Assembly: GCA_000182565.2 (NCBI GenBank) | Contig: KQ257462.1 | Direction: 5' to 3' (one strand) | DNA: 64,000 bases | Origin: Spizellomyces punctatus DAOM BR117 | Lineage: Eukaryota | Shown here: positions 4,332 to 62,401 of the stretch, one piece after another | Layout of the letters: every line of letters starts with the position of its first letter | Numbering within the stretch: the first letter of the stretch is position 1 | Notes under the pieces: model-generated | The model's database searches: none | Seen by the model: the letters and a program-made list of their open reading frames with translations, nothing else | What the model was told of the DNA's origin: nothing | Program-made: the position numbers and the translations under genes

Positions 4332-4473
4332 TGTGGCTGGTGCTTTCATTTAACCATTTCTGACTGTTGTCGTTGCCATGTCCCTCTGAACGCAGCAGAC
4401 CAAGACGAACAAATCACGATTGCTTTCATACTGGGCAAGACGGCCACTAGGTCAAGTTTGCATGTCCCCAAGC
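4332..4473. repeat. Diverged direct repeat copy A (partner at 7670-7849)
   Basis: Shares an exact 20-mer ACGGCCACTAGGTCAAGTTT (4440-4459 = 7816-7835) plus flanking similar blocks (TGTGGCTGG..CATTTAACCATTT..TCGTTGCCATGTC; GACGAACAA.TCA.GATTGC.TTCA). Confidence 0.8.
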
Positions 4474-4553
4474 ATCCTGCGCATGGGCAGATATTTATAG
4501 ATATTGTATGTAATAGTTACATTTCAGAAAAAAAGAATCCGATTGAAATCATA

Positions 4554-4581
4554 GTGCGGAGCCGGTGGACTTTGGCACTAG
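4554..4581 (+). repeat. Left TIR of Fanzor copy 1
   Basis: 28-bp perfect inverted match to 6860-6887. Confidence 0.95.
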
Positions 4582-4664
4582 TACAGTGATTGCAACCAAT
4601 TCAATCATAATTTTACTCGATTTAGGCACATGAACTATGGTTCGATATGGTTCGATGCAAACGA

Positions 4665-4804
4665 TGCTCCACCATTGAAAAACGGGTCCAATATGTGCGG
4701 CAATAAATGATTGAATATTCTGCAGTTGCCACACGGGTCCAATATGTGCGGCAATAAATGATTGAATATTCTGCAGTTGCTCCACCATTGAAAAACGGGT
4801 CCAA
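4665..4804. repeat. Internal duplications in the 5' region of Fanzor copy 1
   Basis: 48-bp identical copies at 4682-4729 and 4733-4780; 27-bp identical copies at 4665-4691 and 4778-4804. Confidence 0.9.
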
Positions 4805-4825
4805 CGTGCGCAGTTGTCATATTTC

Positions 4826-4832
4826 TATATAA
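4826..4832 (+). promoter_or_regulatory. Putative TATA box of Fanzor copy 1
   Basis: TATATAA about 70 nt before the ATG at 4898. The same motif lies upstream of the copy 2 ATG (35842-35848, minus strand). Confidence 0.5.
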
Positions 4833-4897
4833 CCCCCCCCCCATATCATTCTCTGCCCATTTCCCAGGCGTTCATCCATTTTTCTATTCCAATCATC

Positions 4898-6796
4898 ATG
4901 CCACCAAACAAGAAGCAAAAACTCGACAATCGACCTACCTGTCTGCATTCATGCAACAAGACTTCCTTTGCAAAGGCTTTCTTACCTAATGAGACCTACC
5001 GGCAGCGTCTTCTAGATTACATCGCCATCATCCATCAACTCGCCGACCATGCTTCCCACGCGCTGAAATTCTATCTCCTTTCAGCACCAACCTTTCCCAC
5101 GGTAAATGAAGATACAATCGAAGGCATCCTGTATCTTCTCAACAAGGGGGAGGCTTGGCATCCAAGAAAGGAAGCGAAGAAGGCATGGCGGGATAGTTTG
5201 CTGCCATACGTTCAACGGTACTGCCAAATCGTCGGCTTCGTTCATCCAAATCTACGAGGCGAGCAGCAGTCAATCAATTACCTGACAGCGAGTATGATGA
5301 CAAACCTGAAAGTCAACGTTCAAGAGCATTTTATGACGATGCTGCTCCGATATATCAATCTACGGCTGGACGTGAAGGGACGGAAAGGGCAATTTCCTCC
5401 AAAGAGTGAAGTGCGGAAAGCTTTCTTTGCTCGGCTACGCTACTTGAAGTCGATTTTCCTTTTTGATGTCGTGCCCGAGTCACTGGATGACTTGACTGCT
5501 GAAGAGAGTGAGCTTCTAGAAGAGATGTGGTCATTGGATCTCCCATTCCTTCCCAACAATCCCCTTGCCTACGCCATTGTTGCTGATCCGATGTCATTTT
5601 TTCCCGCGTACTGCAAACTCTCTGGGCTGTATGAACGATATGGCTTCCGACGGTTCAGTGCAATACCTCTGCGCCGCTCGCTCATTCAAAGTCACGTGCG
5701 AATCGACACCATCATCCTGTACCAGCATATCCTTTGCATCACACGTCCAGAAGCAGAAGCGGTCGAAAAGGATGATCTGTGGTTGCGGGTCTGTAATCTA
5801 TGTACCAAGGCTTTTCGGTCTCGCCGCGGTATGCAGTTTGAAGGCTCGATCACGACGGATGGTACCTCGGTGTCGGTTTACTTGAAACACCCTGATGCCG
5901 ACAAGTATGGAAGGCGCGGGGGTGGGAAAAAGTCAGCAAAAACGATGGAGGCGGAGGTTAAAGCGGTATATGTGGAGAACAACTTGCCTGCTTGTCGAGC
6001 AGCAGAGAACATTGTCGTTATCGACCCAAACAAGCGCGACATTCTCTACTGCCAAGACAGCAATGGTGCGACAATGTTTCGCTACACCGCCAATCAACGC
6101 TGCAGGGAGACTGGCAGCCGGCAATTTGCAAAGAGACGAGAAGCAATGAAGAAGGAAGCGGGAATTGACCTCATAGACTCACGAATACCATCCCCCAAGA
6201 CGATGAATCTCATGGACTTCATGCGTTACCTTCTCGTTCGCCGCGCTGATTGGGATCGTCGCAAGGAGTTCTACTCCCATCCTGCCCACACGCGGTGGAA
6301 GTGGCACTCTTTCATCAATCGGCAGCGAAGTGAATCGGACCTCATAAGCAACATGCGCGACAAGTTTGGGAACTTCACCGTTGTGATGGGTGATTGGAGC
6401 GATGCCGGCCGAACTGCAAAATTTCAGACCTCATCAAAGACAAAAGGCTGGCGCATTCTGTTCAGGCGCAATCGCATCAACTGCTTCCTGATTGATGAAC
6501 ACAAGACCTCATCTGTTTGCCCTCGCTGTTTGGCCTCATACAACGACTTCCTTGAAAAGGACTTCAAACAACGACCTCATTCAAGACCTTGGCGGCGACG
6601 AGAAGGCAAGGTTGAAGATGTCCATGGCTTGCTGGGTTGTACCAACCCTAACTGTTTGCAGCAAGACTGGACGACAATGCGCTACTGGAATCGAGATACG
6701 CTGGCAACGTGCAATATGCTGACAATCGTGCAATCAATGTTGGATGGGCACGGTAGACCAGAAAGGTTCAGCAGAAGCGTTCCAGCTATAGCGTAG
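4898..6796 (+). CDS. Fz1: Fanzor1 RNA-guided DNA endonuclease (TnpB-like, SpuFz1 family), 632 aa
   Basis: Intronless. ATG at 4898 (MPPNKKQK, NLS-like) aligns with the start of copy 2. RuvC-I VVIDPNKRD (D376), RuvC-II LIDEHKTS (E534), zinc finger CPRC..CTNPNC, RuvC-III WNRD (D600). Confidence 0.95.
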   Translation: MPPNKKQKLDNRPTCLHSCNKTSFAKAFLPNETYRQRLLDYIAIIHQLADHASHALKFYLLSAPTFPTVNEDTIEGILYLLNKGEAWHPRKEAKKAWRDSLLPYVQRYCQIVGFVHPNLRGEQQSINYLTASMMTNLKVNVQEHFMTMLLRYINLRLDVKGRKGQFPPKSEVRKAFFARLRYLKSIFLFDVVPESLDDLTAEESELLEEMWSLDLPFLPNNPLAYAIVADPMSFFPAYCKLSGLYERYGFRRFSAIPLRRSLIQSHVRIDTIILYQHILCITRPEAEAVEKDDLWLRVCNLCTKAFRSRRGMQFEGSITTDGTSVSVYLKHPDADKYGRRGGGKKSAKTMEAEVKAVYVENNLPACRAAENIVVIDPNKRDILYCQDSNGATMFRYTANQRCRETGSRQFAKRREAMKKEAGIDLIDSRIPSPKTMNLMDFMRYLLVRRADWDRRKEFYSHPAHTRWKWHSFINRQRSESDLISNMRDKFGNFTVVMGDWSDAGRTAKFQTSSKTKGWRILFRRNRINCFLIDEHKTSSVCPRCLASYNDFLEKDFKQRPHSRPWRRREGKVEDVHGLLGCTNPNCLQQDWTTMRYWNRDTLATCNMLTIVQSMLDGHGRPERFSRSVPAIA

Positions 6797-6814
6797 CGTA
6801 GATTGGTTAGATTA

Positions 6815-6904
6815 GCTTATCCGAACCGGTTGTCGCCGGTTCATTCCCTGGTGCGGGTGCTAGTGCCAAAGTCCACCGGCTCCGCACTAAGTAATAGGGG
6901 GAGG
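6815..6904 (+). ncRNA. Predicted Fanzor omegaRNA, copy 1 (scaffold ~6815-6889, guide ~6890-6904 AGTAATAGGGGGAGG)
   Basis: 75-nt block conserved with copy 2 (8 substitutions). Hairpin GAACCGG-ttgtcg-CCGGTTC (6823-6842); GTGCGGG can pair with TCCGCAC. Similarity stops abruptly after ..CCGCACTA. Ends are inferred. Confidence 0.85.
6860..6887 (-). repeat. Right TIR of Fanzor copy 1
   Basis: CTAGTGCCAAAGTCCACCGGCTCCGCAC, the inverted copy of 4554-4581. Confidence 0.95.
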
Positions 6905-7669: not shown

Positions 7670-7849
7670 TGTGGCTGGCACTTCCATTTAACCATTTATT
7701 CCTTTTCTCGTTGCCATGTCAACAATTTGCCAAACGCTTTGCAAGCAGTTCATTGAGCAGGATTGTTAACTACCTTTTGGACGAACAAGTCATGATTGCC
7801 TTCACTATAGGCAAAACGGCCACTAGGTCAAGTTTTCATTTTCCCAAGC
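7670..7849. repeat. Diverged direct repeat copy B (partner at 4332-4473)
   Basis: See copy A; this copy has roughly 40 extra bases in the middle. Confidence 0.8.
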
Positions 7850-9363: not shown

Positions 9364-11371
9364 ATGCCAAGCGCCAAACGTAAAACTGCAGACGCAGAAA
9401 TTGCTATCTCGACTTCCCCAGAGGACCCTGCGGAAAGCACAAACGCCAAACGCACCCGTCGTTCAACGAGGGCAGCAGCAGCAGCCGGAAAGGAGAAATT
9501 GGCTGCAATGACTGAAACAAAGGAAAAGACCAAGGCTAAAACCCCTCGTAAGAAGAAAGCAGACGAGGAAGAGACGAGTCCAACTAGTCCGACAAAGAGA
9601 ACAAGAAAGAGAAAACAGGATCATATGGGAGGTGATGATGGGAGTGCACCGACAAGTCCTACGAGCCCCAAAGGGAGAACAACCAAAAAGCCCAAAGAAG
9701 AAGAATCCGGAACGGCAGACAGTGGCAAGAAAGACACACAGAATGGAAATGGAGAGGCGAAACATGAGGGTGAGATGAAAGAAGAGCAGGAGAGCAGCAC
9801 GGGGAAGGGCGGTGTTAAAATGGGAAGCCCACAGAAGAAGGATTTGCAAAGCCCTAAAAGTGAGGCGCCAAAGAGCCCAACAAAGGAGAACGTTAAGAGC
9901 CCCAAAAAGGAAGTACCAGAGAGCTCAAAGGAGGAGGAGTTGAAAAGCCCTAAAAGAGAGACGCCAAAGAGCCCAACAAAGGAGAGCGTCAAGAGCCCGA
10001 AAAAAGAGGCACCGGAGAGTCCAGTCAAGAAGGAGAGCGCCGAGACGGGCAGCGCACTTGGAGACTTGGTACCCCCGCCTCCTGGTAAAGGTAATCTAAA
10101 ATCTGATCCCTACTCCTCTCATGATGCCACATACCAATCATCCAAGCATTCCAAAACACTCTTCCAGGCGTCCTAGAGAAAGGTCACATCTTCTTTTTCT
10201 ACAGGCCCAAGGTGGAAAAGTCGGAAGCAAAAGGCCTTGACGACGTCCAACGGTTCTACATTGTCCTCAAACCCGATGTATACCAATTTAAATCTGAAGA
10301 TGACAAGGAATCCCATGTTTACCACGGCCATCGAATCCGGGAAATCATTGTGACTCGCAAAAAACTGCCAGAGATTGGTAGTCGGGCTCGATATTGGGGA
10401 TTTGTTGACCACGTTGTGGATGATGTGAAAGATTTGGAGCAGTACCTTCGAGGGGAGACTTATGAAACGAAGACGAGAGGTTAGTGGGGTTTTCCGCTCA
10501 TTGTTGTGAAAGCTGGAAAAGGCTGACAGGTATGCCCAAGGTACCCGGCATCTCGAACCTGCGCGACCTTGTGGTAAGATAGATTGGCGTGTAGAATAAA
10601 TTCCTCTCTCCCGTATAATGACTTTTCTTGACTTTACTGTCGATAGGTGAAGGGGTATATTCAATTGTGGATCATAACGGTCATACCCATTTAGCCTATG
10701 TATTAACACTGCCAGAGGAACCAAGTAAGTCAGATGTCACGGTTTAGACTGGTACCTTGGACTTCCCTAACGTACTACAGCTGAGGTACAAAAGACCTTC
10801 AACATTGAAAAGGAGGGATCTTTCATCTTGTCGATCAAAGTAAGCAAAGAATCTCCATCAAATGCACAATGACTTCCATGATACGATATTGACGTATAAC
10901 GAATTAGAATCCGGAAACACCCTCTCCACCCTGGGCCGGCCTCGGAGAGCGCCAAAAGTCGAACCTACCACCCAAATTCCTCGAACTCTTCCGGGGCCGT
11001 AGATTCATACCCGCCAACCCGCCTGCACTTCTCGATTTCGATCATGTTGAAATTCTGCTGATTGGTGCTGCGGAAGATGTATCCGAGGATCTTGGGCAAG
11101 CTGGGAAAGGTTTGTTTGTGAACTACCGTTACAATATTTTGCAAGACAATGAGGTCTCACGGTTTTACCTTGCAGAACTTGAAGAAATGGAAGAGGAGGA
11201 ACACAAGGATGTAGTGAAGCTACAGGACGACAAAGTCTTTCAAGAGTACGTACCAAACACTTTAAAACTAATTCTTTCTTGTGACGTCTCTGATTATCTT
11301 TTCTCATGCACAGCCTCCAATTGGACAAGACGAAATTCAAGACAGAGCCATTATTTGGAAAGTGGGCTTAG
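9364..11371 (+). CDS. Conserved fungal hypothetical protein with a Lys/Ser/Pro-rich N-terminus (multi-exon)
   Basis: Exon 1 is low-complexity with KSP repeats. Later exons read ILEKGHIFFFYRPKVE..DDVQRFYIVL, RYWGFVD, YETKTRG, EGVYSIV..HTHLAYVLTLPEEP, EGSFILSIK and end ..EPLFGKWA* at 11371. Confidence 0.7.
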
Positions 11372-11923
11372 GTTGCGCTATTGATTCATATACCTATCCT
11401 GTCTTCCCATGCATAATTACACGAATCACACATTGTTCTGGTACACTTAATTTTTGGACATTTCAAATTGAAGCGATATTATTGTGGAAGGGAACTGTTG
11501 ATTATCCATGTACAGTTTCCGTCCAAATCCAAAGTTAATACGCATATCTGCTGTCTGCGCTACGAACCAACGAGTAGGGAAATTGTGGAGCAGGCGAGTG
11601 AGGTGATACAAAATGATCTCGCAAGGTCAAGCTCGTTGAGTTCGGTAGCCCATTCGTAAATCTTGTATTGATGCAAGAGCTGGGAACCATTCCCTCATAT
11701 ATATAAAGGATTATGAATGTTCCTTTTCAGTGACAGGGCTGACATAACGCTCTACGGTCATCAAGAGAAAACCAAATCACGGTACTCTGTGATTTCAAAG
11801 ATAATCTTCTGATGTACTAAAGATGACAGACGGCCCCAAGTGTCTCCAGCTATGCAGATACCATCCGTAACAAGATTTGGCGGGTCGAATCAACAAAAAA
11901 CATTTTCTTCTCCGTAACCCAAG

Positions 11924-12005
11924 TGCACGCTGTGAGATTCGAACTCACGCCTCTTTCGAGACTGGAACTTGAGACCAGCTCCTTAGACCGCTCGGACAAG
12001 CGTGC
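11924..12005 (-). tRNA. tRNA-Leu (anticodon CAA), intronless, long variable arm
   Basis: Minus strand reads GCACGCTTGTCCGAGCGGTCTAAGGAGCTGGTCTCAAGTTCCAGTCTCGAAAGAGGCGTGAGTTCGAATCTCACAGCGTGCA: acceptor stem, D loop, CT-CAA-GT anticodon loop, TTCGAAT T loop. A T6 Pol III terminator lies at 11895-11900. Confidence 0.95.
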
Positions 12006-32300: not shown

Positions 32301-33798
32301 GAGAAGCATTTTTGAGACGACTGCGTCGTAGCCAAATTTGGGCTCAACTTGGGATAGTCCGGCCTGCATTTTTTGGTAGTTGGTACATCAGGTCGGTAAG
32401 CAAACCTGACCATTCCCAGGACTGGTGAGGAGACTTTTGCTGAGCAGTTTAATTTCTGCCTTGGATTCACTAAACTTTATATCATTTTGTGGTGTCTCTA
32501 ATGTCCAACAAGTCTGCGAGGGCTGGTCGATCCCTGGAACTGACCTCGCCATCTGAACAGAATTTCTATACGAGTGCGAAAATAATCTGCCAGCAAAGCT
32601 GGCGTTCCGCACTCCGTGACATGAGCATCAAAACCCGAAGGTTTCTCATTGCTCAGCGGCTCCGTATCAAAGACCAGCTGGTCGACGTTTCTGTCCGTGA
32701 CGGGAACATTCCGCCCTGCCTACAGTACTAGCTACTAGTACTACCCCTATTAGTACGAAGATCAGTCGTTTATAACGCATACGGCGACGGTTTACCACTG
32801 TCGGAACGCGCATTGGACTTCCCGTACCTTTTCTGCTCCTGATCGGAAGTAAACCCAATATGACGTTTTCTTCTGGATATTAATTGTTTATGAAGGAACA
32901 GACATGTATCTCATGCTGAATGTAGTGTCCTCGATGTTGACATGTCTATCTGCCTGACAGGGACCTCCACATTCATTCACCATAGCTGAGAGCAATGTGA
33001 AAGCGAAGATACGTCGTTGGCAGGTCTATTTGGTATTGTGGCGGTTCACAGTATTGCAATTGCAGCAAATCCGGTCTTCTTCATTTTGCCTTTTTCTCCT
33101 TTCGCATATGGCTGCAAGCATGCTACACAGAGAGGTGATGCTTTGTTATATAATGGATATAATGGAAGATTTCACTTGACGAGGACGAGTGGATGGAACA
33201 ACTTGGCGGTGTGCCACGGCACTCCTACTGATACCGCAAATTCGGGTTCCTTCCACATACTTGGATTTGGTCTACTTTCTAATAATGTCTGATTCATTAG
33301 ATAATTAAAGCTGTTATGGGAGACAGAATTACATACAGTATCAAACCACTTTTTACCACTGGGGCAGATTTAACGGACGACATCTACGCCAAAAAAAAAA
33401 AGCATGCGCAGATGCATTACCTCTTGGCGCAACAAGCCCACCAGAACAAGACTTGATTGTTCTCCAAACATGCTCGCTCCTGACTAAAGTCACAAGTTAG
33501 CAGATTCGCTACCCTACTTCTCCGGTAAACTCCCTTCATCTTTTTTTAAAAGCAAAAATTCATTTGTTGGTATTCTTCTTCTAGGAGCGTGGAAATGCTT
33601 AGGCTTTCCGTAGCATTTTCTACATCATTGCCGCCATTACCTGTGCCGGTCTATTGGCATCCCTATTCTTCAAGCACATTCCTTTAAAGTAGAAATACAT
33701 GGGCTGATGACGAAGGTTAAATGCAGAATACAATAATAGGGTAGTGCTGCAACTAAGAGTCCATGTGATATTCAAACATGAACTATGGTGGTCTTCTG

Positions 33799-33888
33799 TT
33801 AAACGTTTATATCTAGTGCGGAGCCGATGGGTATTGGCACTAGCACCCGCACCAGGAATTGAACCGGCGACAACCAGCTCGGATAAGC
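33799..33888 (-). ncRNA. Predicted Fanzor omegaRNA, copy 2 (scaffold ~33888-33814, guide ~33813-33799 GATATAAACGTTTAA)
   Basis: Minus strand reads GCTTATCCGAGCTGGTTGTCGCCGGTTCAATTCCTGGTGCGGGTGCTAGTGCCAATACCCATCGGCTCCGCACTA, colinear with the copy 1 scaffold. Ends are inferred. Confidence 0.85.
33816..33843 (+). repeat. Right TIR of Fanzor copy 2
   Basis: 28-bp perfect inverted match to 35925-35952. Confidence 0.95.
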
Positions 33889-33901
33889 TAATCTAACCAA
33901 T

Positions 33902-35791
33902 CTACGCTACGGCTGGAACACCCCTGCTGAACACCTCTGGTCTACCGTGCCCATCCAACATTGATTGCACGATTGTCAGCATATTACAGGTTGCCAGCGT
34001 ATCTCGGTTCCAGTAGCGCATCGTCCAGGCTTGCTGACAGTTAGGGTTGGTACAACCCAGCAATCCATGGACTTTTTCAATCTTGCCTTCGCGACGGCGC
34101 CAAGGTCTTGAATGAGGTCGTGTTTTGAAGTCCTTTTCAAGGAAGTCATCAGATGAGGCCAAACAGCGAGGGCAGACAGATGAGGTCTTGTACTCGTCGA
34201 GAAGGAAGCAGTTGATCCTGTTCCGCTTAAAGAGGGTGCGCCAACCTTTCGTCTTTGATGAGGTCTGAAATCTCGCAGTTCGACCGGCGTCGCTCCAATC
34301 ACCCATCACAATGGTGAAGTTTTCGCCGTACTTGTTGCGCATGTTGGATATGAGGTCTGATTCGCTCTTCTGACGGTTTATGAATGCGTGCCATTTCCAT
34401 CGAGTATGAGCAGGGTGGGAGTAGAACTCCTTTCGACGATCCCAATCAGCGCGGCGAACGAGAAGGTAACGCATGAAGTCTATGAGGTTCATCGTCTTGT
34501 GGCTTGGGATACGTGATTCTATGAGGTCAATACCGCCAGCTTTCATCCGCTGCCGTTCTTTTGCAAATCGACGGCTTCCAGTCTCCATGCAGCGTTGATT
34601 GGCGGTGTAACGGAAGATGGTGCCCTTGTTGTCTTGGCAGTAGAGAATGTCGCGCTTGTTTGGATCGATAACGACAATGTTCTCTTGACAAGCAGATAAG
34701 TTGTTTTCCACATACAGCGCCTTCACCTCAGCTGCTAGAGCCTTTGCTGACTTTCTCGCTCCGCGCTTTCCGTACTTGTCAGCTTCTGGGTGCTTTAGGT
34801 ATACAGACACCGAGGTTCCGTCTGTCGTGATCGAGCCTTCAAAATGCATACCACAGCGAGACCGAAAAGCTTTGGTACGTAGATTACAGACGCGCAACCA
34901 TAAATCGACCTTCTCTACGGCTTCTGCTTCTTGGCGGGTGATGCAGAGGATGTGGGCGTAGAGAATGACCGTGTCGATGCGAATATGGCTTTGGATGAGA
35001 GAGCGGCGCAGAGGTATCGCGCTGAACTGTTGAAAACCTTGCTGCTCGAACAACTTTGACAGTCGGCAGTATGCAGGAAAGAAGGACATCGCGTCGATGG
35101 CAATGAGGTAGGCAAGCGGCTTGTCTTGATCAGGAAATGGCAGGTTAAGTGTCCAGATCTCTTCTAAAATCTCGTTTTCAAGAATGCTCAAGTCATCCAG
35201 TGATTCTGGCATAGTTTCGAAAAGGAAAACCGACTTCAAGTAGTGTAGCTGAGTAAAGAAAGCTTGCCGCGCATCGCTTTTCAGTGGCAGTCGCTGCTTC
35301 TGTCCCTTCACGTCGAGCCGCAGATTGATATACCGAAGGAGCATCTGCATGAAATGCTCTTGAACGTTGACTTTCAGGTTCGTCATCATACTCGCTGTCA
35401 GGTAATTGACTGATTGCTGCTCGCCTCGTAGATTTGGGTGAACAAAGCCGACGATTTGGCAGTACCGTTGAACATATGGCAGCAAACAATCCCGCCATGC
35501 CTTCTTTGCTTCCTTTCTTGGATGCCAAGCCTCTCCTTTGTTGAGAAGATAGAGAATTGCTTCGATTGTATCTTCATTTACCGTGGGAAAGGTTGGTGCA
35601 GATAGGATGTAGAATTTGAGAGCGTGGGAAGCGTGGTCAGCGAGTTGATGGATGATGGCGATGTAATCTAGAAGACGCTGCCGGTAGGTCTCGTTTGGCA
35701 AGAAAGCTTTTGCAAAGGAAGTCTTGTTGCAGGTATGTAAGCAAGTAGGTTTGTCGAGTTTTTCAAGCTTTTGCTTTTTCTTTGGCGGCAT
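33902..35791 (-). CDS. Fz1: Fanzor1 RNA-guided DNA endonuclease (TnpB-like, SpuFz1 family), 629 aa
   Basis: Intronless; MPPKKKQK NLS-like start. RuvC-I VVIDPNKRD (D376), RuvC-II LLDEYKTS (E533), CPRC..CTNPNC zinc finger, WNRD (D597). Colinear paralog of 4898-6796. Confidence 0.95.
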   Translation of the reverse strand: MPPKKKQKLEKLDKPTCLHTCNKTSFAKAFLPNETYRQRLLDYIAIIHQLADHASHALKFYILSAPTFPTVNEDTIEAILYLLNKGEAWHPRKEAKKAWRDCLLPYVQRYCQIVGFVHPNLRGEQQSVNYLTASMMTNLKVNVQEHFMQMLLRYINLRLDVKGQKQRLPLKSDARQAFFTQLHYLKSVFLFETMPESLDDLSILENEILEEIWTLNLPFPDQDKPLAYLIAIDAMSFFPAYCRLSKLFEQQGFQQFSAIPLRRSLIQSHIRIDTVILYAHILCITRQEAEAVEKVDLWLRVCNLRTKAFRSRCGMHFEGSITTDGTSVSVYLKHPEADKYGKRGARKSAKALAAEVKALYVENNLSACQENIVVIDPNKRDILYCQDNKGTIFRYTANQRCMETGSRRFAKERQRMKAGGIDLIESRIPSHKTMNLIDFMRYLLVRRADWDRRKEFYSHPAHTRWKWHAFINRQKSESDLISNMRNKYGENFTIVMGDWSDAGRTARFQTSSKTKGWRTLFKRNRINCFLLDEYKTSSVCPRCLASSDDFLEKDFKTRPHSRPWRRREGKIEKVHGLLGCTNPNCQQAWTMRYWNRDTLATCNMLTIVQSMLDGHGRPEVFSRGVPAVA

Positions 35792-35924
35792 GATGATATC
35801 TGTGGGAAAAGATGAAAGCCTGGGAAAATGGGCACGACAACTTATATAGGATTTTTTGGATCAAACCATAGTTCATGAGTCTAAATCGAGTAAAATTATG
35901 ATTAAATTGGTTGGAATCTATGTA

Positions 35925-35952
35925 CTAGTGCCAATACCCATCGGCTCCGCAC
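35925..35952 (-). repeat. Left TIR of Fanzor copy 2
   Basis: Inverted copy of 33816-33843. Confidence 0.95.
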
Positions 35953-38900
35953 TATGATCTGCGTCAGCCATCCCTCTCTATTGTAATATCTTGGTATTTT
36001 GGATCGAACTTGCCAGTGCTCTTGCTTGCAGTGCTTCAGTTTACTGGCCTTTCTTCTTCTTACGGACTTACTAGGAACTCACTGATGTTATGCTGCAATA
36101 AACCATCTTTATTCTTTGCCGCTGCAATACGACTAGTTCCATGGGTCTTCTAATTAAAACACTACATGGGTACTAACTTAAAGCGGCCTTAACTTCATTG
36201 GTAAATAATTCCGGACGCTGACCGAGGCACAGGAACAAAACCTTGAGGTGGCCTGAGTGAGCACCATCGATCCATTCGGGAATGGTAAAGAAGTCGAAGA
36301 GATATGTCGAACAGAAGAGTGACTATCAACCAATCATTTAACCAAACAGTAAGATGAATGCTTTACCAGAGTTTGCCAGAGTGGTTACGAACTTTCCGAC
36401 GTCTGAGAGATCTTTTGAATCGCAGGATCCGAGGAGAGGGTATCATTTTGGACCAGCCGATCGAAGATGTCCGAGTTCGTTACTGGGCAGAGAAAAGAAC
36501 CCTTGCGCAATCTGCCCTAAAAGATCGCAGTCAAGAAGAGCAACTGTTCGAAGGATATGAGACGCAAGGAAATACATACGCGAAACCCATTACAGAAGAA
36601 GGAAACGTCCTTGGCGATTTCGTCGAGTCTCTTCGTCTGTGCAACCTGGTAGAGATTGCTCTTTTCCGTTGTTCTTGTTGCGTGCATGTGGGACTCTCAC
36701 AATCTGTCATCAGTGGGACACCTTGCTCCAGAAACAATCTATGGACAGAGGAAAGCGGGAGAACAAGCACGACGTCCAAGTCATGTCATACATCTGCAGG
36801 GCGAAACTTTGATCGGATTCATAGGAATCGATCGAATGCTGCCCACCACGACTAGCCAAAGCCGCCAATATGTCTAGCTCTCTTAGTTACGGGCATTTAG
36901 GCTATTTTGACCAAAATCAACTGAGGGCAAGTCTTTTGCGATCCTGCGTATGCGAACAACCGCCGTTCGTCACTCGAGGTCAACAGGGTACTTTCGAAAA
37001 TAACTGCATTGTAGTTTTGTTTTCCCTTGACAATATTGATACAAGAGTCAATTGTGATTTCGATGCCTGTCTTGGGATATGCAAAGGGATCTGATACCTT
37101 TTTTTTATCAATTCGAGTATCCCTTTTCCGCCCACCATGTCCGAATCCGGTTAACATCGCTGAGCCTTATCGGTATGCCGTTACATTTTCTGCAGTTGTA
37201 CGCATGTAAGAAGGAAGAAAGCAATAATAAGAAACCGACCCTTCTCGCGACAGGTTCTATGGTCATCCGCAATCTCCCGACCGAGCCGCTTCGCAGTCGT
37301 ATTGGCACTGTTTGTCGCCGGCATGACGGACTTCAAGGACCTCGAGGTATCCAAGATTGAGCACAGAAATAAACGAAATTGACAGGAACAAAGGTCAGAT
37401 GATAAATGACATGACCGGCGTTGATGCAGTGTTCTTGTGTTAGACCTGAAGAAGACGGACGAAGACCGCATATTCGAGGCACTTGCATCTTTCCCACATA
37501 TAAGACCGTCTTTCATGAAGGGCGAATGGTCCGCGACTCTACCGTTTTGCAGTTGCCAGTTACCCCGGGTGCGCATGTTGCTTCATTGGCGCTCGAAGTA
37601 AGAAACAAAACAATACTGGAAGCAGTGTAGACTGTTTTCTTGCACTTCGTCAGGTTGATCCTTCTCCATCACCTTGTACCAGAACGCCGGCAAACTCCCG
37701 CTCATTTCTTCACTGTGGGCTGCCCTGCTTACCCCCTAGCCCCAAACGCCAACAAAATGCCATCATATTACCGATGATGAATTCCTCACCGCAACGGGCT
37801 TCGCTGAAGCTTGCAACTGTACATTTAACATATCACCTACAATCCGGTCTCACTCAAATAAGGTTACGCCGATTTCAATTCGTTGCGGAATTTTCAGTGA
37901 CTATCAAATCGGCGTTTGAGTAAAGCGAGGGAATAGGGATTCCACATGCATCCTGGAATCATATCGTTTTCTTTTACCAAGACTCAATTGTAGTGTGCTG
38001 GAAAACCGGCAAATCATTAGTGAAGGCCGCTCCAACGTTATGGTGAGGACGTTCTGACCATGACAGGCGAGATGCCCTTGTCGTTGGAAGAGTGGTTTAA
38101 ATAAGTGCGCCATATATTCATTTCCACTACTGATACGGAATGATGCAAGGCTGGGGAAGAAGTCAGTGGTTTATAGGTGTAGATATTATTACATCAGACC
38201 ATTAGATGCTGCTTGTGTGGGAAACCTTCAGTGTGCAGCCTACGTTAAAGGGACATTCTGAGCTGTTCCTGCAAAGATGCGGCATCCATCTTTCATCCGT
38301 TCACTTGCTGCGTTCTACCAAGTTTATCTCAACTGACGCAAGGTGAGACCACATAGCACATTGTTCTGTCGTCGAAGTGGGCAATTACCATGTCAGCGCG
38401 GTGGACCTTTCCTCTTTTCTATGTCATCCAGGTTGGGAGACTTGCAATGTATCCGTTTATATTAAGATACAGCAGAGCATCTATTACCACACTAGCTTAG
38501 GGCTGGAAACATGCATGTCGTTCTACCGAAAGTATCCCTGGGCTGTTTTCCAATTCTAGATGCGAAGACTACACTTTCATTTCCCTTCTCATTGTAACAA
38601 GCACCCATCTCATCAATCTATTCGTCCCTCAACCAAAGTGCCTTTAACTCTAACCCTTTCCCCACCTCCGGTAAATATCCACACGTGGAAGATACAGTCG
38701 TCGGAATGCTCAAGCATCTCCACAGAGCCTTCAACGTCCACATCAAATCTAGTGTTTCTAGAATGTCGACAGAGAGGTCAAGCTGCATAGTGGCCTTGAA
38801 ACCGAGTGAATGAACCGCCGACCCTTTCGAAGCCTTGTTGGGGCGTGAGTCATTTTTTCCCTCTGGAACTGGTCGCTGGTGGGTCGGTAGACCAGTTAGG

Positions 38901-59418: not shown

Positions 59419-62401
59419 ATGTCTGCCTCAACTGCATTGACGACATGGCGGTTCCCTCCACGCCCAGGAGTTGGAGCCTCTGGGAGAAACATCCAAGTGC
59501 GAGCAAACTTTTTCCCTGTCATGACCCTTCCCGGGCAGAATATCCACCACTACGATGTCAACATTACTCCCGACGTCCCGCCAGCAAAGAATAGGAGAAT
59601 TTATCAGTTGTGGGAGGACGAACAGTTATTGAGCGGGGCGTTGAACGGTATCAGACCTGTGTTTGATGGAAGAAAGAATGTGTTTGCGGCTAAAGCGCTA
59701 CCCATTGCTCCGGGGGAAGTGGCGTTTAACATTGATTATTTTGACGATGACGATAGTAAAAAGTAAGTACAGCACACGACCGATGCTGCATTTACTCCTC
59801 TTGGAGTCTTGCAACGTTTTTGCTCCTATTTGCATCACACTACCGGCTTCGATGGATTCGACAACTTCTGATTGGTGTCATTTTCAGGCGCGGGCCGAAA
59901 AAGTTCACATTGATCATCAAAAAGGTTGGCGAAATAAATATGCAGAAATTGTCAGCCTTCCTCGATGGGCGACTAGCTGACACGCCGAATGACGCCATTA
60001 TGGCTCTTGATATCCTCCTCCGTCACCGTCCTTCCCTTACTTACACCACAATTGGAAGGTGCTTCTATACGCCGGATTCCGCTGCGAGTATTGCCAATGG
60101 TGCCCAGTTGTGGCAAGGGTTCCATCAAAGTATCAGGCCAACCCGGGGGCAGATGCTAATCAATTTGGATGTATCTGCAACAGCCTTCTATCAGCCTGGT
60201 AAATACTCAACTAGATAATTTCAATGTAAGCGATAAGCTGACATTCGTTTTCCAAGGCCCTGTTATTGAGATGGTCGCCAAGATTCTTGGTAGACACAGT
60301 GGCGCGGATTTACGTGCACCACTAAGTGACCGGGACAGACTGAAGGTAGAAAAGGTGCTGAAAGGACTGAAGATTGTCGTCACCCATCGTGGACAGATCC
60401 GCCGCAAATTCCGAATTACAAAGATCACATCCACCCCCGCTAACCGTACCATGTTCTCCCTGGAGAGCACTGGTCTCGAAAACTCTGTTGCTGGATATTT
60501 CCAAGCCAAGTACAATCACCAGCTGTACTTTCCTCACCTCCCCTGCCTTGTTGTTGGTGACCCATCACGACAGGTATTCCTACCAATGGAGGTCTGTGAC
60601 ATTGTGCCCGGTCAAAGACACTTGAGGAAATTGAATGAGCGCCAGGTTCGCATACTTTGTTCATGACACCGTTGGCTCAGTACTTACCGCTACCCACCTG
60701 CAGACGGCGGAAATGATCAAGTTCACTTGCCAGCCACCTCACGTTCGATCCAATAAGATTTCAGCCGGTATTACCATTCTTCAGCAAAGAGACAATGATT
60801 ATCTCCGCGAGTTTGGTGTGCAGATTGGTCATGAAATGACAATTGTCAATGCACGTGTACTACCTGCTCCCGCTATTTCTTACCACCCAGCTTCAAAAGA
60901 GCCCGTCATCACTCCTCGGGAGGGAGCCTGGAACCTTCGCGACAAGATGGTTGCTCAGGGTGTTACAGTTCGATCCTGGTCTGTGATTGCATTTGGTCAG
61001 GAAACTGATTACCCTGTCGCTGCCATTCAAAAGTTTGTCACGCTTCTCGTGCAAACCTGCGAGGAGTGTGGTGTGTTCATTCAGAATCGCCAACCCCCAA
61101 TTTCCTACGCGAACCCCCTGGGCAATGTGGAGAAGACTCTGATTGATGCTTACATGTTAGCTGGAAATTCCTTCCAGGAGCGTCCTCAGATGGTTCTGTG
61201 CATCTTGCCCAACACGGGTGTGCCACTTTACGCTGAGATCAAACGGGTGTCTGACACCATTATTGGAGTCGCCACACAGTGTATACAGGCTAAGCACATG
61301 TTTGCGGCCAAAAGGCAATACTGCGCGAATGTATGTTTGAAGATGAATGTTAAGCTGGGTGGTATGAACAGTTACTTGTCAAATACTCAACTGCCGTTCG
61401 TGAGTGAGCGGCCGACCATTATTCTTGGGGCAGATGTTACGGTGGGTATTGTATTCTTCTACGGTCTTGAACATCAAGTTCTAAATTTATTTTTTTAGCA
61501 TCCGGCCCCTGGCTCTGCCTCCAACCAATCGATTGCGGCCCTTGTTGGATCCATGGATGCACAATGCTCACGGTTTGCCGCGGCGATCCGTGTCCAGAAA
61601 GGACGTCAAGAAGTTATCCAGGACCTCTCAGGCATGGTGATTGAGCTCCTCAAGACCTTTTACCAGACCTGCGGAGCCAAGCCAGAGCGTATTGTCTTTT
61701 ATCGGGATGGTGTATCTGAGGGACAGTTTGCTGAAGTTTTGCGATGCGAGGTAGAGGCTATCCGAAGGGCCTGTGTCTCTCTCGAACCGACGTACAGACC
61801 GACTGTGACGTTTGTCGTTGTTCAAAAACGTCATCATGCAAGATTTTTCCCGATCCGAAAGGAGGACTCGGACCGGAGTGGAAATGTCTTGCCAGGGACA
61901 GTGGTTGAAACGGGTGTGACGCATCCCTCCGAATTCGATTTCTACCTCTGCTCGCATCCGGGTCTCCAAGGGACGTCCAAACCCACTCACTACCACGTGC
62001 TGCATGATGAGAACCGATTTTCCCCCGACGCGCTCCAAGAGCTTACTTACCGCCTCTGCTACCTGTACTGCCGTGCCACGCGAAGTGTTTCCGTATGTCC
62101 ACCCGCTTATTACGCGCATTTGGTTGCTGCTCGAGCGCGATTCCACGCAACGGGCGAAGGATGGAGTGAGAGTTCAAGTGAAGGAAGTGTGTCAAGCAAT
62201 GGGAGCGCCCAGACTGTACCGAATGTGGCTGCTGTCCCTCTTGGTGGTATGATTGGTGTGCCGAATGGTAATGGGATTCCTGTGGTGGCGCCAGCGGCGG
62301 CGGGGGTTGGTAAAAAGTGTGCTGTGAAGGAGGGTGCGGTGCGAATGATGAATTACGGCGTTGTGAAGGAGGAGTTGACTAAAGTCATGTATTTCATGTG
62401 A
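59419..62401 (+). CDS. AGO: Argonaute (multi-exon)
   Basis: N domain (RANFF, HHYDV), L1/PAZ ([22 protein letters not shown]), MID ([17 protein letters not shown]) and PIWI with [22 protein letters not shown]. Confidence 0.97.

What the first reader, a model, noticed from the sequence alone, without database searches (positions are those of the whole stretch)
33799..35956. Second intact, diverged Fanzor1 element 27 kb away on the opposite strand
Seen: same layout (CATA, TIR, ORF, scaffold, TIR, TA) with unrelated flanks, so it is an independent insertion rather than a segmental duplication. The proteins are colinear and both frames are open, with divergence concentrated around residues ~160-260 and small in-frame indels. 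Inference: both copies are recent or under purifying selection and may be subfamilies with different RNA compatibility.
Basis: partly seen in the sequence, partly recalled or inferred. Interest (0 to 1): 0.85.

Follow-up and report, generated by a model that had tools for sequence, protein, structure and literature searches.

The report
Known Fanzor1 transposon copy, intact
This is a complete copy of the SPu-1 jumping element of a chytrid fungus, carrying the well-studied RNA-guided DNA cutter SpuFz1 and its guide RNA; it is real and looks functional, but the family and its many copies are already published.

Summary
Window 33814-35954 (- strand) is a full-length 2,141-bp SPu-1 element. It has perfect 30-nt terminal inverted repeats, CA+TA (= CATA) outside the left end, an open 629-aa ORF, a 74-nt omegaRNA scaffold running into the right repeat, and unrelated flanks.

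A second copy lies at 4552-6889 (+), 26.9 kb away. The two are 83% identical in DNA and 84% in protein.

The protein is 88% identical to SpuFz1, the Spizellomyces punctatus Fanzor1 with solved structures (PDB 8GKH). It keeps 4/4 catalytic residues, 6/6 TAM-reading residues, 10/10 listed RNA-contact residues and the 4-Cys zinc finger.

What I could add to the published work:
- dN/dS between the copies is 0.14-0.18 with dS 0.52-0.66, so the copies are not recent and the coding sequence has been under purifying selection.
- The divergent block at residues ~150-275 also has raised synonymous divergence and is shared patchily among paralogues, which suggests recombination.

The "different RNA compatibility" idea is not supported.

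The family is in print. Bao & Jurka (2013) reported 17 full-length copies. Saito et al. (2023) reported 42 loci, 19 of them full-length, ~82% protein identity, the conserved CA, and the CATA TAM.

Verdict: already known, low interest.

The parts
35955..35956 (-). CA dinucleotide just outside the left end. Together with the terminal TA it reads CATA, the published SpuFz1 TAM.
   Evidence: Sequence. The other copy has the same ATCA+TA. A conserved CA upstream of the 5' repeat and the 5'-CATA TAM are reported in PMC10432273.
35922..35954 (-). Left-end terminal inverted repeat: 33 nt, of which the outer 30 nt are identical to the right-end repeat. It begins with TA, which is either a target-site duplication or the element's own terminus.
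   Evidence: (I12).
35860..35921 (-). Conserved non-coding block next to the left end, 55 of 62 bases identical to the other copy.
   Evidence: (99 nt at 88.9%, including the repeat).
35842..35849 (-). CTATATAA, a TATA-box-like motif about 57 nt upstream of the ATG. It is conserved in the other copy (CTATATAA within 4825-4835).
   Evidence: Alignment. The promoter role is inferred, not tested.
33902..35791 (-). Fanzor1 (SpuFz1 paralogue) ORF, 629 aa, with no intron needed.
   Evidence: 88% identity to SpuFz1 (P0002, PDB 8gkh); catalytic D376/N378/E533/D597 kept; zinc-finger cysteines kept.
33814..33887 (-). Predicted 74-nt omegaRNA scaffold. It has a 5' tail (U5 C6 C7), SL1 (nt 8-27 = 33861-33880, 7 bp plus a U-G), a linker, and SL2 (nt 34-74 = 33814-33854, with an 8-nt apical loop) that uses the right repeat as its 3' arm.
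   Evidence: Folds. The numbering reproduces the published U5/C6/C7 and G20, the 7-bp SL1 and the 8-nt hairpin loop of stem 2. Expression from this locus is not shown.
33814..33846 (-). Right-end terminal inverted repeat (33 nt), ending in TA.
33799..33813 (-). The 15 nt of flank directly after the right end (GATATAAACGTTTAA), the predicted guide of this locus's omegaRNA. It is unique in the window.
   Evidence: 1 match at up to 2 mismatches. A guide of 14-15 nt beyond the 75-nt scaffold is reported in PMC10432273, section 7.
4552..6889 (+). The other SPu-1 copy used for comparison. It is 2,338 bp with an ORF at 4898-6796 (632 aa), and is longer through a roughly 184-nt block of 51-nt tandem repeats at 4665-4811.

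Best explanation
Window 33814-35954 (- strand) is a full-length, apparently functional copy of SPu-1. SPu-1 is the roughly 2.1-kb terminal-inverted-repeat element of the chytrid Spizellomyces punctatus, or a very close relative. It encodes the RNA-guided endonuclease Fanzor1 (SpuFz1 family) and, at its 3' end, that enzyme's omegaRNA.

How it should work, with shown and inferred steps marked:
- The ORF is transcribed from an internal promoter with a conserved TATA-like box (inferred).
- A roughly 90-nt RNA is made from the last 74 nt of the element plus about 15 nt of flank (shown for sister loci in print, inferred here).
- The protein binds this RNA through SL1, SL2 and the 5' tail. It then cuts double-stranded DNA that carries 5'-CATA followed by a match to the guide (shown for SpuFz1 in print; inferred here from conserved residues).
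- The element sits as CA-TA[element]TA-flank. A site from which it was cleanly removed would therefore read CATA plus the guide match, which is exactly this RNP's target.
- The likely biological role is to cut the emptied or unoccupied homologous site so that repair copies the element back. This is by analogy with TnpB, as discussed by Saito et al., and is untested in Fanzor.
- The element has no transposase. Its movement must depend on an enzyme encoded elsewhere, which is unknown.

The two window copies are independent insertions from lineages that split long ago (dS about 0.5-0.66). Their coding sequence stayed under purifying selection (dN/dS about 0.14-0.18), and there are signs of recombination among paralogues.
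For: Identity of the protein:
- phmmer against PDB sequences gives 8gkh_P (MBP-SpuFz1) at E = 0 and 1245 bits, covering query residues 2-629. Parasitella Fanzor1 follows at 8.6e-47.
- P0002 (SPPG_07727, 638 aa), which reads the same as the SpuFz1 part of that chain where I compared the two by eye, is 550/625 identical to this protein.
- Of 53 homologues at E <= 1e-20, 15 are named as S. punctatus DAOM BR117 proteins at 77-88% identity.

Functional residues, taken from passages of PMC10432273 and mapped:
- D383/N385/E541/D606: 4/4 kept.
- TAM readers R96/Q129/Q130/N133/R291/Y345: 6/6 kept.
- RNA contacts: 10/10 kept.
- DNA-backbone contacts: 6/7 kept (R260 is Q255 here).
- All 8 Cys/His columns of residues 540-638 are kept.

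Element anatomy matches print:
- About 2.1 kb, 33-bp TIRs and TA ends (PMC3627910).
- 30-nt IRs plus an upstream CA, a 75-nt scaffold and a 14-15-nt guide (PMC10432273, section 7).

RNA:
- Both copies give the same predicted two-stem fold.
- SL1 has 7 bp and C6/G20 fall where the structure papers place them.
- All 3 of 3 stem differences between the copies keep pairing: A-U to G-U, C-G to U-G, G-C to G-U.

Selection: dN 0.091, dS 0.52-0.66, omega 0.138-0.176 by four methods, bootstrap interval 0.104-0.182.

Independence of the insertions: the flanks are unrelated.

Family transcription: RNA reads at >= 97% likeness cover the 5' 480 nt at 13-133x in the orientation expected for sense RNA in most stranded libraries.
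Against: - Nothing here shows that this particular copy is expressed or active.
- The RNA reads are short (up to 60 nt) and 1101 of 1150 lie only partly on the stretch.
- At sites that differ among paralogues the RNA reads are a mixture. For example, 17 of 20 carry the other letter at 35558 and 0 of 61 at 35624. They cannot be assigned to this locus.
- The middle of the ORF (34252-35379) has a depth of 0 to about 1.
- At the 3' end the read orientation is mixed: 9 against 17.7 in the bin 33782-33875.
- One DNA-backbone contact is changed (R260 to Q).
- Low dN/dS between two transposon copies can reflect selection on active ancestors before insertion, not selection at this locus.
- The local Pfam scan returned 0 families, although the homologue table lists a precomputed PF26935.1 for all hits. 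The family name is therefore not confirmed by a Pfam model run here.
- The homing role and the TA duplication are both inferences. No empty site was seen; none of the 3 joints spans the element.
Confidence: 0.9

Rival explanations
1. The copy is no longer a mobile element. It is a fixed locus kept by selection for a host-level or family-level function, for example supplying nuclease in trans to the many protein-less 'ghost' omegaRNA loci.
For: dN/dS is 0.14-0.18 over a long divergence (dS 0.5-0.66). The paralogue tree is nearly a star, with long terminal branches (0.06-0.18) and very short internal ones (0.012-0.026), so most protein change lies on terminal branches. Saito et al. found no transposase within Spu-1 repeats and 134 ghost loci.
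Against: Both 30-nt repeats are perfect within the copy, and the CA/TA context and omegaRNA are intact, as expected of an element still able to move. The star shape can also come from recombination among copies, which searches suggest. It can also come from truncated gene models among the 25 rows. With DNA for only two copies, branch-specific omega cannot be computed.
Confidence: 0.07
2. The two copies belong to functionally distinct subfamilies whose proteins prefer their own omegaRNA.
For: The copies differ at 4 of 30 repeat positions, and the differences are mirrored at both ends of each copy. The REC-domain block at residues ~150-275 is only 63-70% identical and occurs in at least three sequence types among paralogues.
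Against: The scaffold is 80/88 identical and no stem pair is broken. Three of the four mirrored repeat differences fall in the apical loop of SL2 and the fourth changes G-C to G-U. RNA-contact residues are kept 10/10 and 9/10. None of the contact residues listed in the passages I saw lies between residues 158 and 259. SpuFz1 is reported to work with ghost omegaRNAs that have a different stem 2, and SL2 can be trimmed. There is no well-supported subfamily split.
Confidence: 0.04
3. The second copy arose by segmental duplication with inversion, not by transposition.
For: Both copies lie on one 64-kb stretch, and both have ATCA before the TA.
Against: Similarity ends exactly at the element boundaries. 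3-kb flanks give only 11-19-nt chance matches with E >= 1.7.
Confidence: 0.01

Closest known systems
SpuFz1 (SPPG_07727), the Fanzor1 of Spizellomyces punctatus DAOM BR117. Cryo-EM structures 8GKH and 9CEU-9CEZ (Saito et al. 2023, PMC10432273; Xu et al. 2024, PMC11423790).
   Same: 88% identical over the full length. It has the same catalytic, TAM-reading, RNA-contact and zinc-finger residues. The omegaRNA architecture is the same (5' tail, 7-bp SL1, SL2 with an 8-nt loop built on the right repeat). The CATA context is the same.
   Different: It is 629 aa rather than 638 aa, through small in-frame indels. 75 of 625 aligned residues differ, most of them in REC residues ~150-275. R260 is Q. Its flank-derived guide is its own. 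It has not been tested biochemically.
SPu-1 transposon family (Bao & Jurka 2013, PMC3627910).
   Same: About 2.1 kb, a single ORF, 33-bp terminal inverted repeats, TA at both ends and multiple copies.
   Different: None in kind. The paper counts 17 full-length copies, 9 with intact ORFs. Saito et al. count 42 loci, 19 full-length. I could not see the supplementary tables, so I cannot say which listed locus this is.
TnpB/omegaRNA of IS200/IS605 elements (ISDra2).
   Same: It is an RNA-guided RuvC nuclease. Its guide RNA is encoded at the element's right end and reads into the flank, and its TAM equals the sequence next to the left end. This geometry makes the emptied donor site the target (discussion passages of PMC10432273).
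   Different: It is a eukaryotic element with inverted repeats and TA ends instead of subterminal hairpins. No TnpA-like transposase is present in the element. The REC domain is larger. The omegaRNA lacks the pseudoknot, as stated in PMC10432273.

Membership tests
Fanzor1 (SpuFz1 clade) | Full-length sequence homology to characterised Fanzor1 proteins | tested here: met
   8gkh_P at E = 0 covering residues 2-629, and 9cf0_P (Parasitella Fz1) at 8.6e-47; 550/625 identical to P0002.
Fanzor1 (SpuFz1 clade) | RuvC active site (D383, E541, D606, plus the Mg ligand N385 in SpuFz1 numbering) | tested here: met
   D376, N378, E533 and D597 are all kept.
Fanzor1 (SpuFz1 clade) | C4 zinc finger between the second and third RuvC motifs (Bao & Jurka motif D-X-[TS][TS]-X-X-C4-X-RD) | tested here: met
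   C548, C551, C586 and C591 are kept. TSSVCPRC and NRD are present in the alignment.
Fanzor1 (SpuFz1 clade) | [quoted passage not shown] | tested here: inconclusive
   The sequence and predicted fold fit the published description (passages). The published omegaRNA sequence itself was not available to align. Rfam has no matching family (0 hits). Transcription of this RNA at this locus is not shown.
Fanzor1 (SpuFz1 clade) | TAM (5'-CATA) adjacent to the left end | tested here: met
   CA followed by the terminal TA in both copies. All 6 TAM-reading residues are kept.
Fanzor1 (SpuFz1 clade) | RNA-guided double-stranded DNA cleavage | not testable with these tools
   This needs biochemistry. It is published only for the paralogue SpuFz1.
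Fanzor1 (SpuFz1 clade) | Match to a curated Pfam model | tested here: not met
   0 families at E <= 0.1 in the local Pfam-A copy. The homologue table carries a precomputed PF26935.1 for this protein and all 53 hits, so the model seems to be missing from the local copy. I do not know that model's name.
SPu-1 transposon | About 2.1 kb, a single ORF, 30-33-nt terminal inverted repeats and TA at both ends | tested here: met
   2,141 bp; 33-nt repeats at 97%; outer 30 nt identical; TA at both termini.
SPu-1 transposon | TA is a true target-site duplication (cut-and-paste insertion) | not testable with these tools
   No empty site is available and no whole genome is held. No joint spans the element in 4 runs.

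The most novel reading that the evidence does not exclude
The ends of SPu-1 elements are kept identical by an active copying or repair process, or by tight co-selection, and paralogues exchange segments by recombination.

The evidence for the first part is the pattern in the repeats. The two copies differ at 4 of 30 repeat positions. In each copy the same 4 differences are mirrored in the left and right repeats, so each copy's repeats are 30/30 identical. That needs eight matched substitutions.

The evidence for the second part is threefold. The REC block has raised synonymous divergence (P = 0.014). It shows patchwork sharing among paralogues. The paralogue tree is close to a star.

If both parts are real, Fanzor elements would evolve as a recombining population. 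Their end sequences, one of which doubles as the guide-RNA stem, would be homogenised within each element.
Probability: 0.15. Interest if true: 0.4.

Novelty: already known. Interest (0 to 1): 0.12.

Why it matters
It matters little as a discovery. SPu-1 was the founding Fanzor element (2013). SpuFz1 is the best-characterised Fanzor1, with biochemistry, human-cell editing and several structures. Its roughly 42 genomic loci, about 82% protein identity, conserved CA and CATA TAM are all in print.

The small additions here concern how the family is maintained:
- A dN/dS estimate decides between the two options Saito et al. left open ("recent duplication or strong selection") in favour of selection.
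- There are hints of recombination between copies.
- The changes in the two terminal repeats are mirrored.

The natural variants (R260Q, the REC block, the SL1 wobble pairs) may be of minor use to people engineering SpuFz1.

Tried and rejected
- Whole-genome census: no genome is held for this window, so there is no copy census, no empty-site search and no branch-specific dN/dS.
- Pfam: the ORF gave 0 families.
- tRNA-like reading of the scaffold, prompted by a T-arm-like GGTTCAATTCC. ARAGORN finds only an unrelated tRNA-Leu at 11923-12005. Rfam gives 0 matches at gathering score over the window and 0 at E <= 10 over 33750-34000. Rejected.
- Ghost or solo repeats in the window: the repeat pattern at up to 3 mismatches hits only the four ends of the two elements.
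- Metagenome relatives, first scan: the single-protein scan matched 174 stretches, none of them related.
- Metagenome relatives, second scan: the profile scan gave 23 loci at 26-57% identity. In the 6 I examined out of 23 (L001-L004, L006, L007) no convincing terminal inverted repeats bracket the gene.
- Metagenome relatives, end sequences: BLAST of both element ends against all 23 loci gave one 13-nt chance hit (E 0.18). Only coding parts align. The relatives I looked at have in-frame stops consistent with introns or decay. This route says nothing about SPu-1 ends.
- Copy-specific expression: the reads are too short and the paralogues too similar. No conclusion on this locus.
- Bacterial promoter and terminator scan: not meaningful for a eukaryote and at shuffle level.
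- Script error: the first dN/dS script used a start coordinate one base off and gave nonsense. It was corrected.
- Tree: the first run ended before the careful search finished. The finished tree is, whose bootstrap had not fully settled (correlation 0.985).
- Literature: a search for Fanzor plus "purifying selection" found 3 papers, of which 2 were listed, and neither is on SpuFz1. I found no published dN/dS for these copies in that library.

Full report
**What is there.**
The - strand of window 33902-35791 holds an uninterrupted 629-codon ORF. It is bracketed by 33-nt inverted repeats at 33814-33846 and 35922-35954 (pair I12, 97% complementary). The outer 30 nt of the two arms are identical.

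A degenerate version of the repeat occurs four times in the 64-kb window, two per element, against 0.00 expected from shuffles. So there are exactly two elements and no solo or 'ghost' ends in the window.

Read in the direction of the gene, the element is preceded by ...GCAGATCA and starts with TA. It ends with TA and is followed by GATATAAACGTTTAA.

**The second copy.**
A second element lies at 4552-6889 on the + strand (ORF 4898-6796, 632 aa), 26.9 kb away.
- BLAST aligns 2,056 nt at 83.3%, plus the left-end block at 88.9%.
- The proteins share 527 of 625 aligned residues. The 11 gap columns fall in 9 whole-codon events.
- Copy 1 is 197 bp longer, mainly through a block of 51-nt tandem repeats (4665-4811) between the conserved left-end block and a conserved CTATATAA motif.
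- Flanks are unrelated. 3 kb on each side of each copy give only 11-19-nt matches with E >= 1.7. In the global alignment, similarity stops at ATCATA (left) and TA (right).
- These are independent insertions, not a segmental duplication.

**What it is.**
Against PDB sequences the protein hits the MBP-SpuFz1 chain 8gkh_P at E = 0 (1245 bits, query 2-629). It then hits Parasitella parasitica Fanzor1 at 8.6e-47.

In the 5.8-billion-protein collection, 53 proteins pass E <= 1e-20. Fifteen of them are named as Spizellomyces punctatus DAOM BR117 proteins, at 77-88% identity. P0002 (SPPG_07727, 638 aa) reads the same as the SpuFz1 part of the PDB chain where I compared the two by eye. It is 550/625 identical to this copy and 545/627 identical to copy 1.

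The window is therefore from S. punctatus or a very near relative. The element is SPu-1, the founding Fanzor element.
- Bao & Jurka 2013 (PMC3627910, passages seen) describe it as about 2,100 bp with one ORF, 33-bp TIRs and putative TA duplications. They count 17 full-length copies, 9 of them with intact ORFs.
- Saito et al. 2023 (PMC10432273; passages, section 7 read whole) report the following:
  - 42 loci, 19 of them full-length.
  - 134 protein-less ghost loci.
  - About 82% protein identity.
  - 30-nt repeats with a conserved upstream CA.
  - A 75-nt scaffold plus a 14-15-nt guide.
  - A 5'-CATA TAM.
  - No transposase inside the repeats.

**Is it intact in the functional sense?**
I mapped the residues named in the passages of PMC10432273 onto both copies.

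| Residue set (SpuFz1 numbering) | This copy | Copy 1 |
|---|---|---|
| Mg/catalytic D383, N385, E541, D606 | 4/4 | 4/4 |
| TAM readers R96, Q129, Q130, N133, R291, Y345 | 6/6 | 6/6 |
| Ten RNA or heteroduplex contacts | 10/10 | 9/10 (T22 to S) |
| Seven DNA-backbone contacts (R268 counted in both lists) | 6/7 (R260 to Q255) | 7/7 |
| Eight Cys/His columns of residues 540-638, including C548/C551/C586/C591 | all kept | all kept |

The local Pfam scan gave no family. The homologue table lists a precomputed PF26935.1 for every hit.

**The RNA end.**
From the stop codon to the right end, 80 of 88 aligned bases are identical between the copies. This is the best-conserved part of the element. By comparison, pS is 0.44 at synonymous sites and 31% of third codon positions differ.

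The last 74 nt of both copies give the same predicted fold: a 5' tail, SL1, a linker, and SL2 whose 3' arm is the terminal repeat (longer folds, z = -2.8 and -1.9). Numbered from 33887, the tail reads U5 C6 C7 and G20 is the last loop base of SL1. These are the residues named in the cryo-EM description. SL1 has the 7 base pairs stated by Xu et al. 2024 (PMC11423790, passage). SL2 has the 8-nt loop said to mark canonical, as opposed to ghost, omegaRNAs.

Of the 8 differences between the copies:
- 3 lie in stems, and all 3 keep a pair (A-U/G-U, C-G/U-G, G-C/G-U).
- 2 lie in the linker.
- 3 lie in the SL2 apical loop.

There is no double compensatory change, so this is only weak covariation evidence.

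Rfam holds no matching family. A tRNA-like reading was excluded.

**Selection and age.**

| Measure | Value |
|---|---|
| NG86 | dN 0.091, dS 0.660, omega 0.138 |
| LWL85 omega | 0.167 |
| YN00 omega | 0.175 |
| ML omega | 0.176 |
| Bootstrap 95% interval (NG86, 1000 resamples) | 0.104-0.182, maximum 0.207 |

The copies are therefore not recent duplicates. The coding sequence on the path between them has been under purifying selection.

The usual caveat applies. Between transposon copies, such a signal may come from active ancestors rather than from selection at the present loci. With DNA for only two copies I cannot separate the two.

**The divergent block.**
In 60-codon windows spanning residues 153-273, amino-acid identity is 63-70%. 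dN is 0.20-0.25 and omega is 0.12-0.34. It is still below 1, so there is no sign of positive selection.

Synonymous divergence is also raised nearby: dS is 1.0-2.2 in windows spanning 183-333. Among 500 codons with identical degenerate amino acids, 149 differ. The richest 40-codon window (residues 219-277) has 23 differing codons, permutation P = 0.014.

Across paralogues this block comes in at least three sequence types, combined differently with neighbouring segments. Copy 2's LNLPFPDQDKPLAYLIAIDAMSF is shared with P0010. Its upstream and downstream motifs are shared with P0009 or with the non-Spizellomyces-labelled P0012.

The careful tree of 25 proteins puts the 17 S. punctatus-type paralogues in one well-supported clade (100/99). 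Inside that clade it is nearly a polytomy, with internal branches 0.012-0.026 and terminal branches 0.06-0.18.
- Copy 1 sits beside SpuFz1 at 92/78.
- Copy 2 sits beside P0009 and P0010 at 81/64.
- Neither pairing is well supported, several rows are truncated gene models, and the bootstrap had not fully settled.

Together these results point to recombination or gene conversion among copies rather than to clean subfamilies.

**Mechanism.**
Shown in print for the paralogue SpuFz1:
- The protein binds the roughly 90-nt RNA.
- It cuts double-stranded DNA with a 5'-CATA TAM next to a guide match.
- It leaves 5' overhangs.

Inferred here from conserved residues and RNA: this copy does the same, with the guide GAUAUAAACGUUUAA. 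That guide sequence occurs once in the window.

The geometry CA-TA[element]TA-flank means that a cleanly emptied site would read CATA plus the guide match. The likely role is therefore cutting of the empty or homologous site so that repair re-copies the element. Saito et al. discuss this model by analogy with TnpB. It remains untested for Fanzor. Whatever moves the element is unknown.

**Expression check.**
Of the runs found I laid four at >= 97% likeness.
- The raw RNA run gave 1,150 reads, and 1,101 of them lie only partly on the stretch.
- They are concentrated on 35474-35943 (13-133x) in the orientation expected for sense RNA in most stranded libraries.
- Depth is 0 to about 1 over 34252-35379, and orientation is mixed over the 3' end.
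- At paralogue-variable sites the reads are a mixture of copies.
- This shows that the family's 5' region is transcribed. It shows nothing specific to this locus.
- No joint spans the element, so no empty site was seen.
- DNA reads from other copies begin and end at 33814, and RNA reads from other copies diverge after 35955/35956. This supports the element boundaries, including the CA.

**Comparison and verdict.**
The element is a member of a published family in every feature I could test. Cleavage activity and the status of TA as a duplication could not be tested.

- Independent insertion: right.
- Purifying selection: right.
- Recency: wrong.
- RNA incompatibility: unsupported.

Novelty: already known. 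Earlier notes of this scan on other genomes use SpuFz1 as their reference. None of them concerns this genome, and none changed my reading.

Noticed in passing
33814-33843 and 35925-35954, against 4552-4581 and 6860-6889: The two copies differ at 4 of the 30 repeat positions. In each copy the same 4 differences appear mirrored in both the left and right repeats, so each copy's repeats are 30/30 identical. One inner asymmetry (position 31, T against C) is shared by both copies. This suggests that the ends are homogenised or co-selected within a lineage.
   Followed up: partly
4665-4811: Copy 1 carries about three 51-nt tandem repeats (94-100% identical) between the conserved left-end block and the TATA-like motif. 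Copy 2 lacks them. This accounts for most of the 197-bp length difference.
   Followed up: partly
4332-4473 and 7670-7849: Two direct-repeat segments (51 nt at 84% and 70 nt at 86%), about 3.35 kb apart, lie on either side of copy 1 but outside its repeats. This could be a duplicated host sequence or the ends of another element. The cause was not resolved.
   Followed up: no
33902-35791, residues ~200-300 of the protein: Synonymous divergence between the copies is uneven. 51-56% of identical-amino-acid codons differ in residues 201-300, against 14-36% elsewhere (permutation P = 0.014). This fits a mosaic origin for the REC block.
   Followed up: partly
60635-61498 and 61553-62401 (+): Two adjacent ORFs carry ArgoL2, ArgoMid and Piwi domains (Piwi E = 4.5e-77). 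This is an Argonaute gene, probably split by an intron, about 25 kb from the Fanzor element. It is an ordinary host gene.
   Followed up: no
11923-12005 (-): tRNA-Leu (CAA) gene, the only tRNA in the window.
   Followed up: no
9826-10017 within ORF 9364-10176 (+): 48-nt and 96-nt tandem coding repeats rich in K, E, S and P codons. The ORF has no Pfam match.
   Followed up: no
L002, L003, L006, L007 (soil metagenome contigs): Fanzor1 relatives at 44-57% identity have in-frame stops soon after the start of the match, possibly from introns or decay. They show no terminal repeats or 3' scaffold resembling SPu-1.
   Followed up: partly
33902-35791 (-): The local Pfam-A copy gives no hit for this protein. 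The homologue table lists a precomputed PF26935.1 for it and for all 53 relatives, so the local library seems to lack that model.
   Followed up: no
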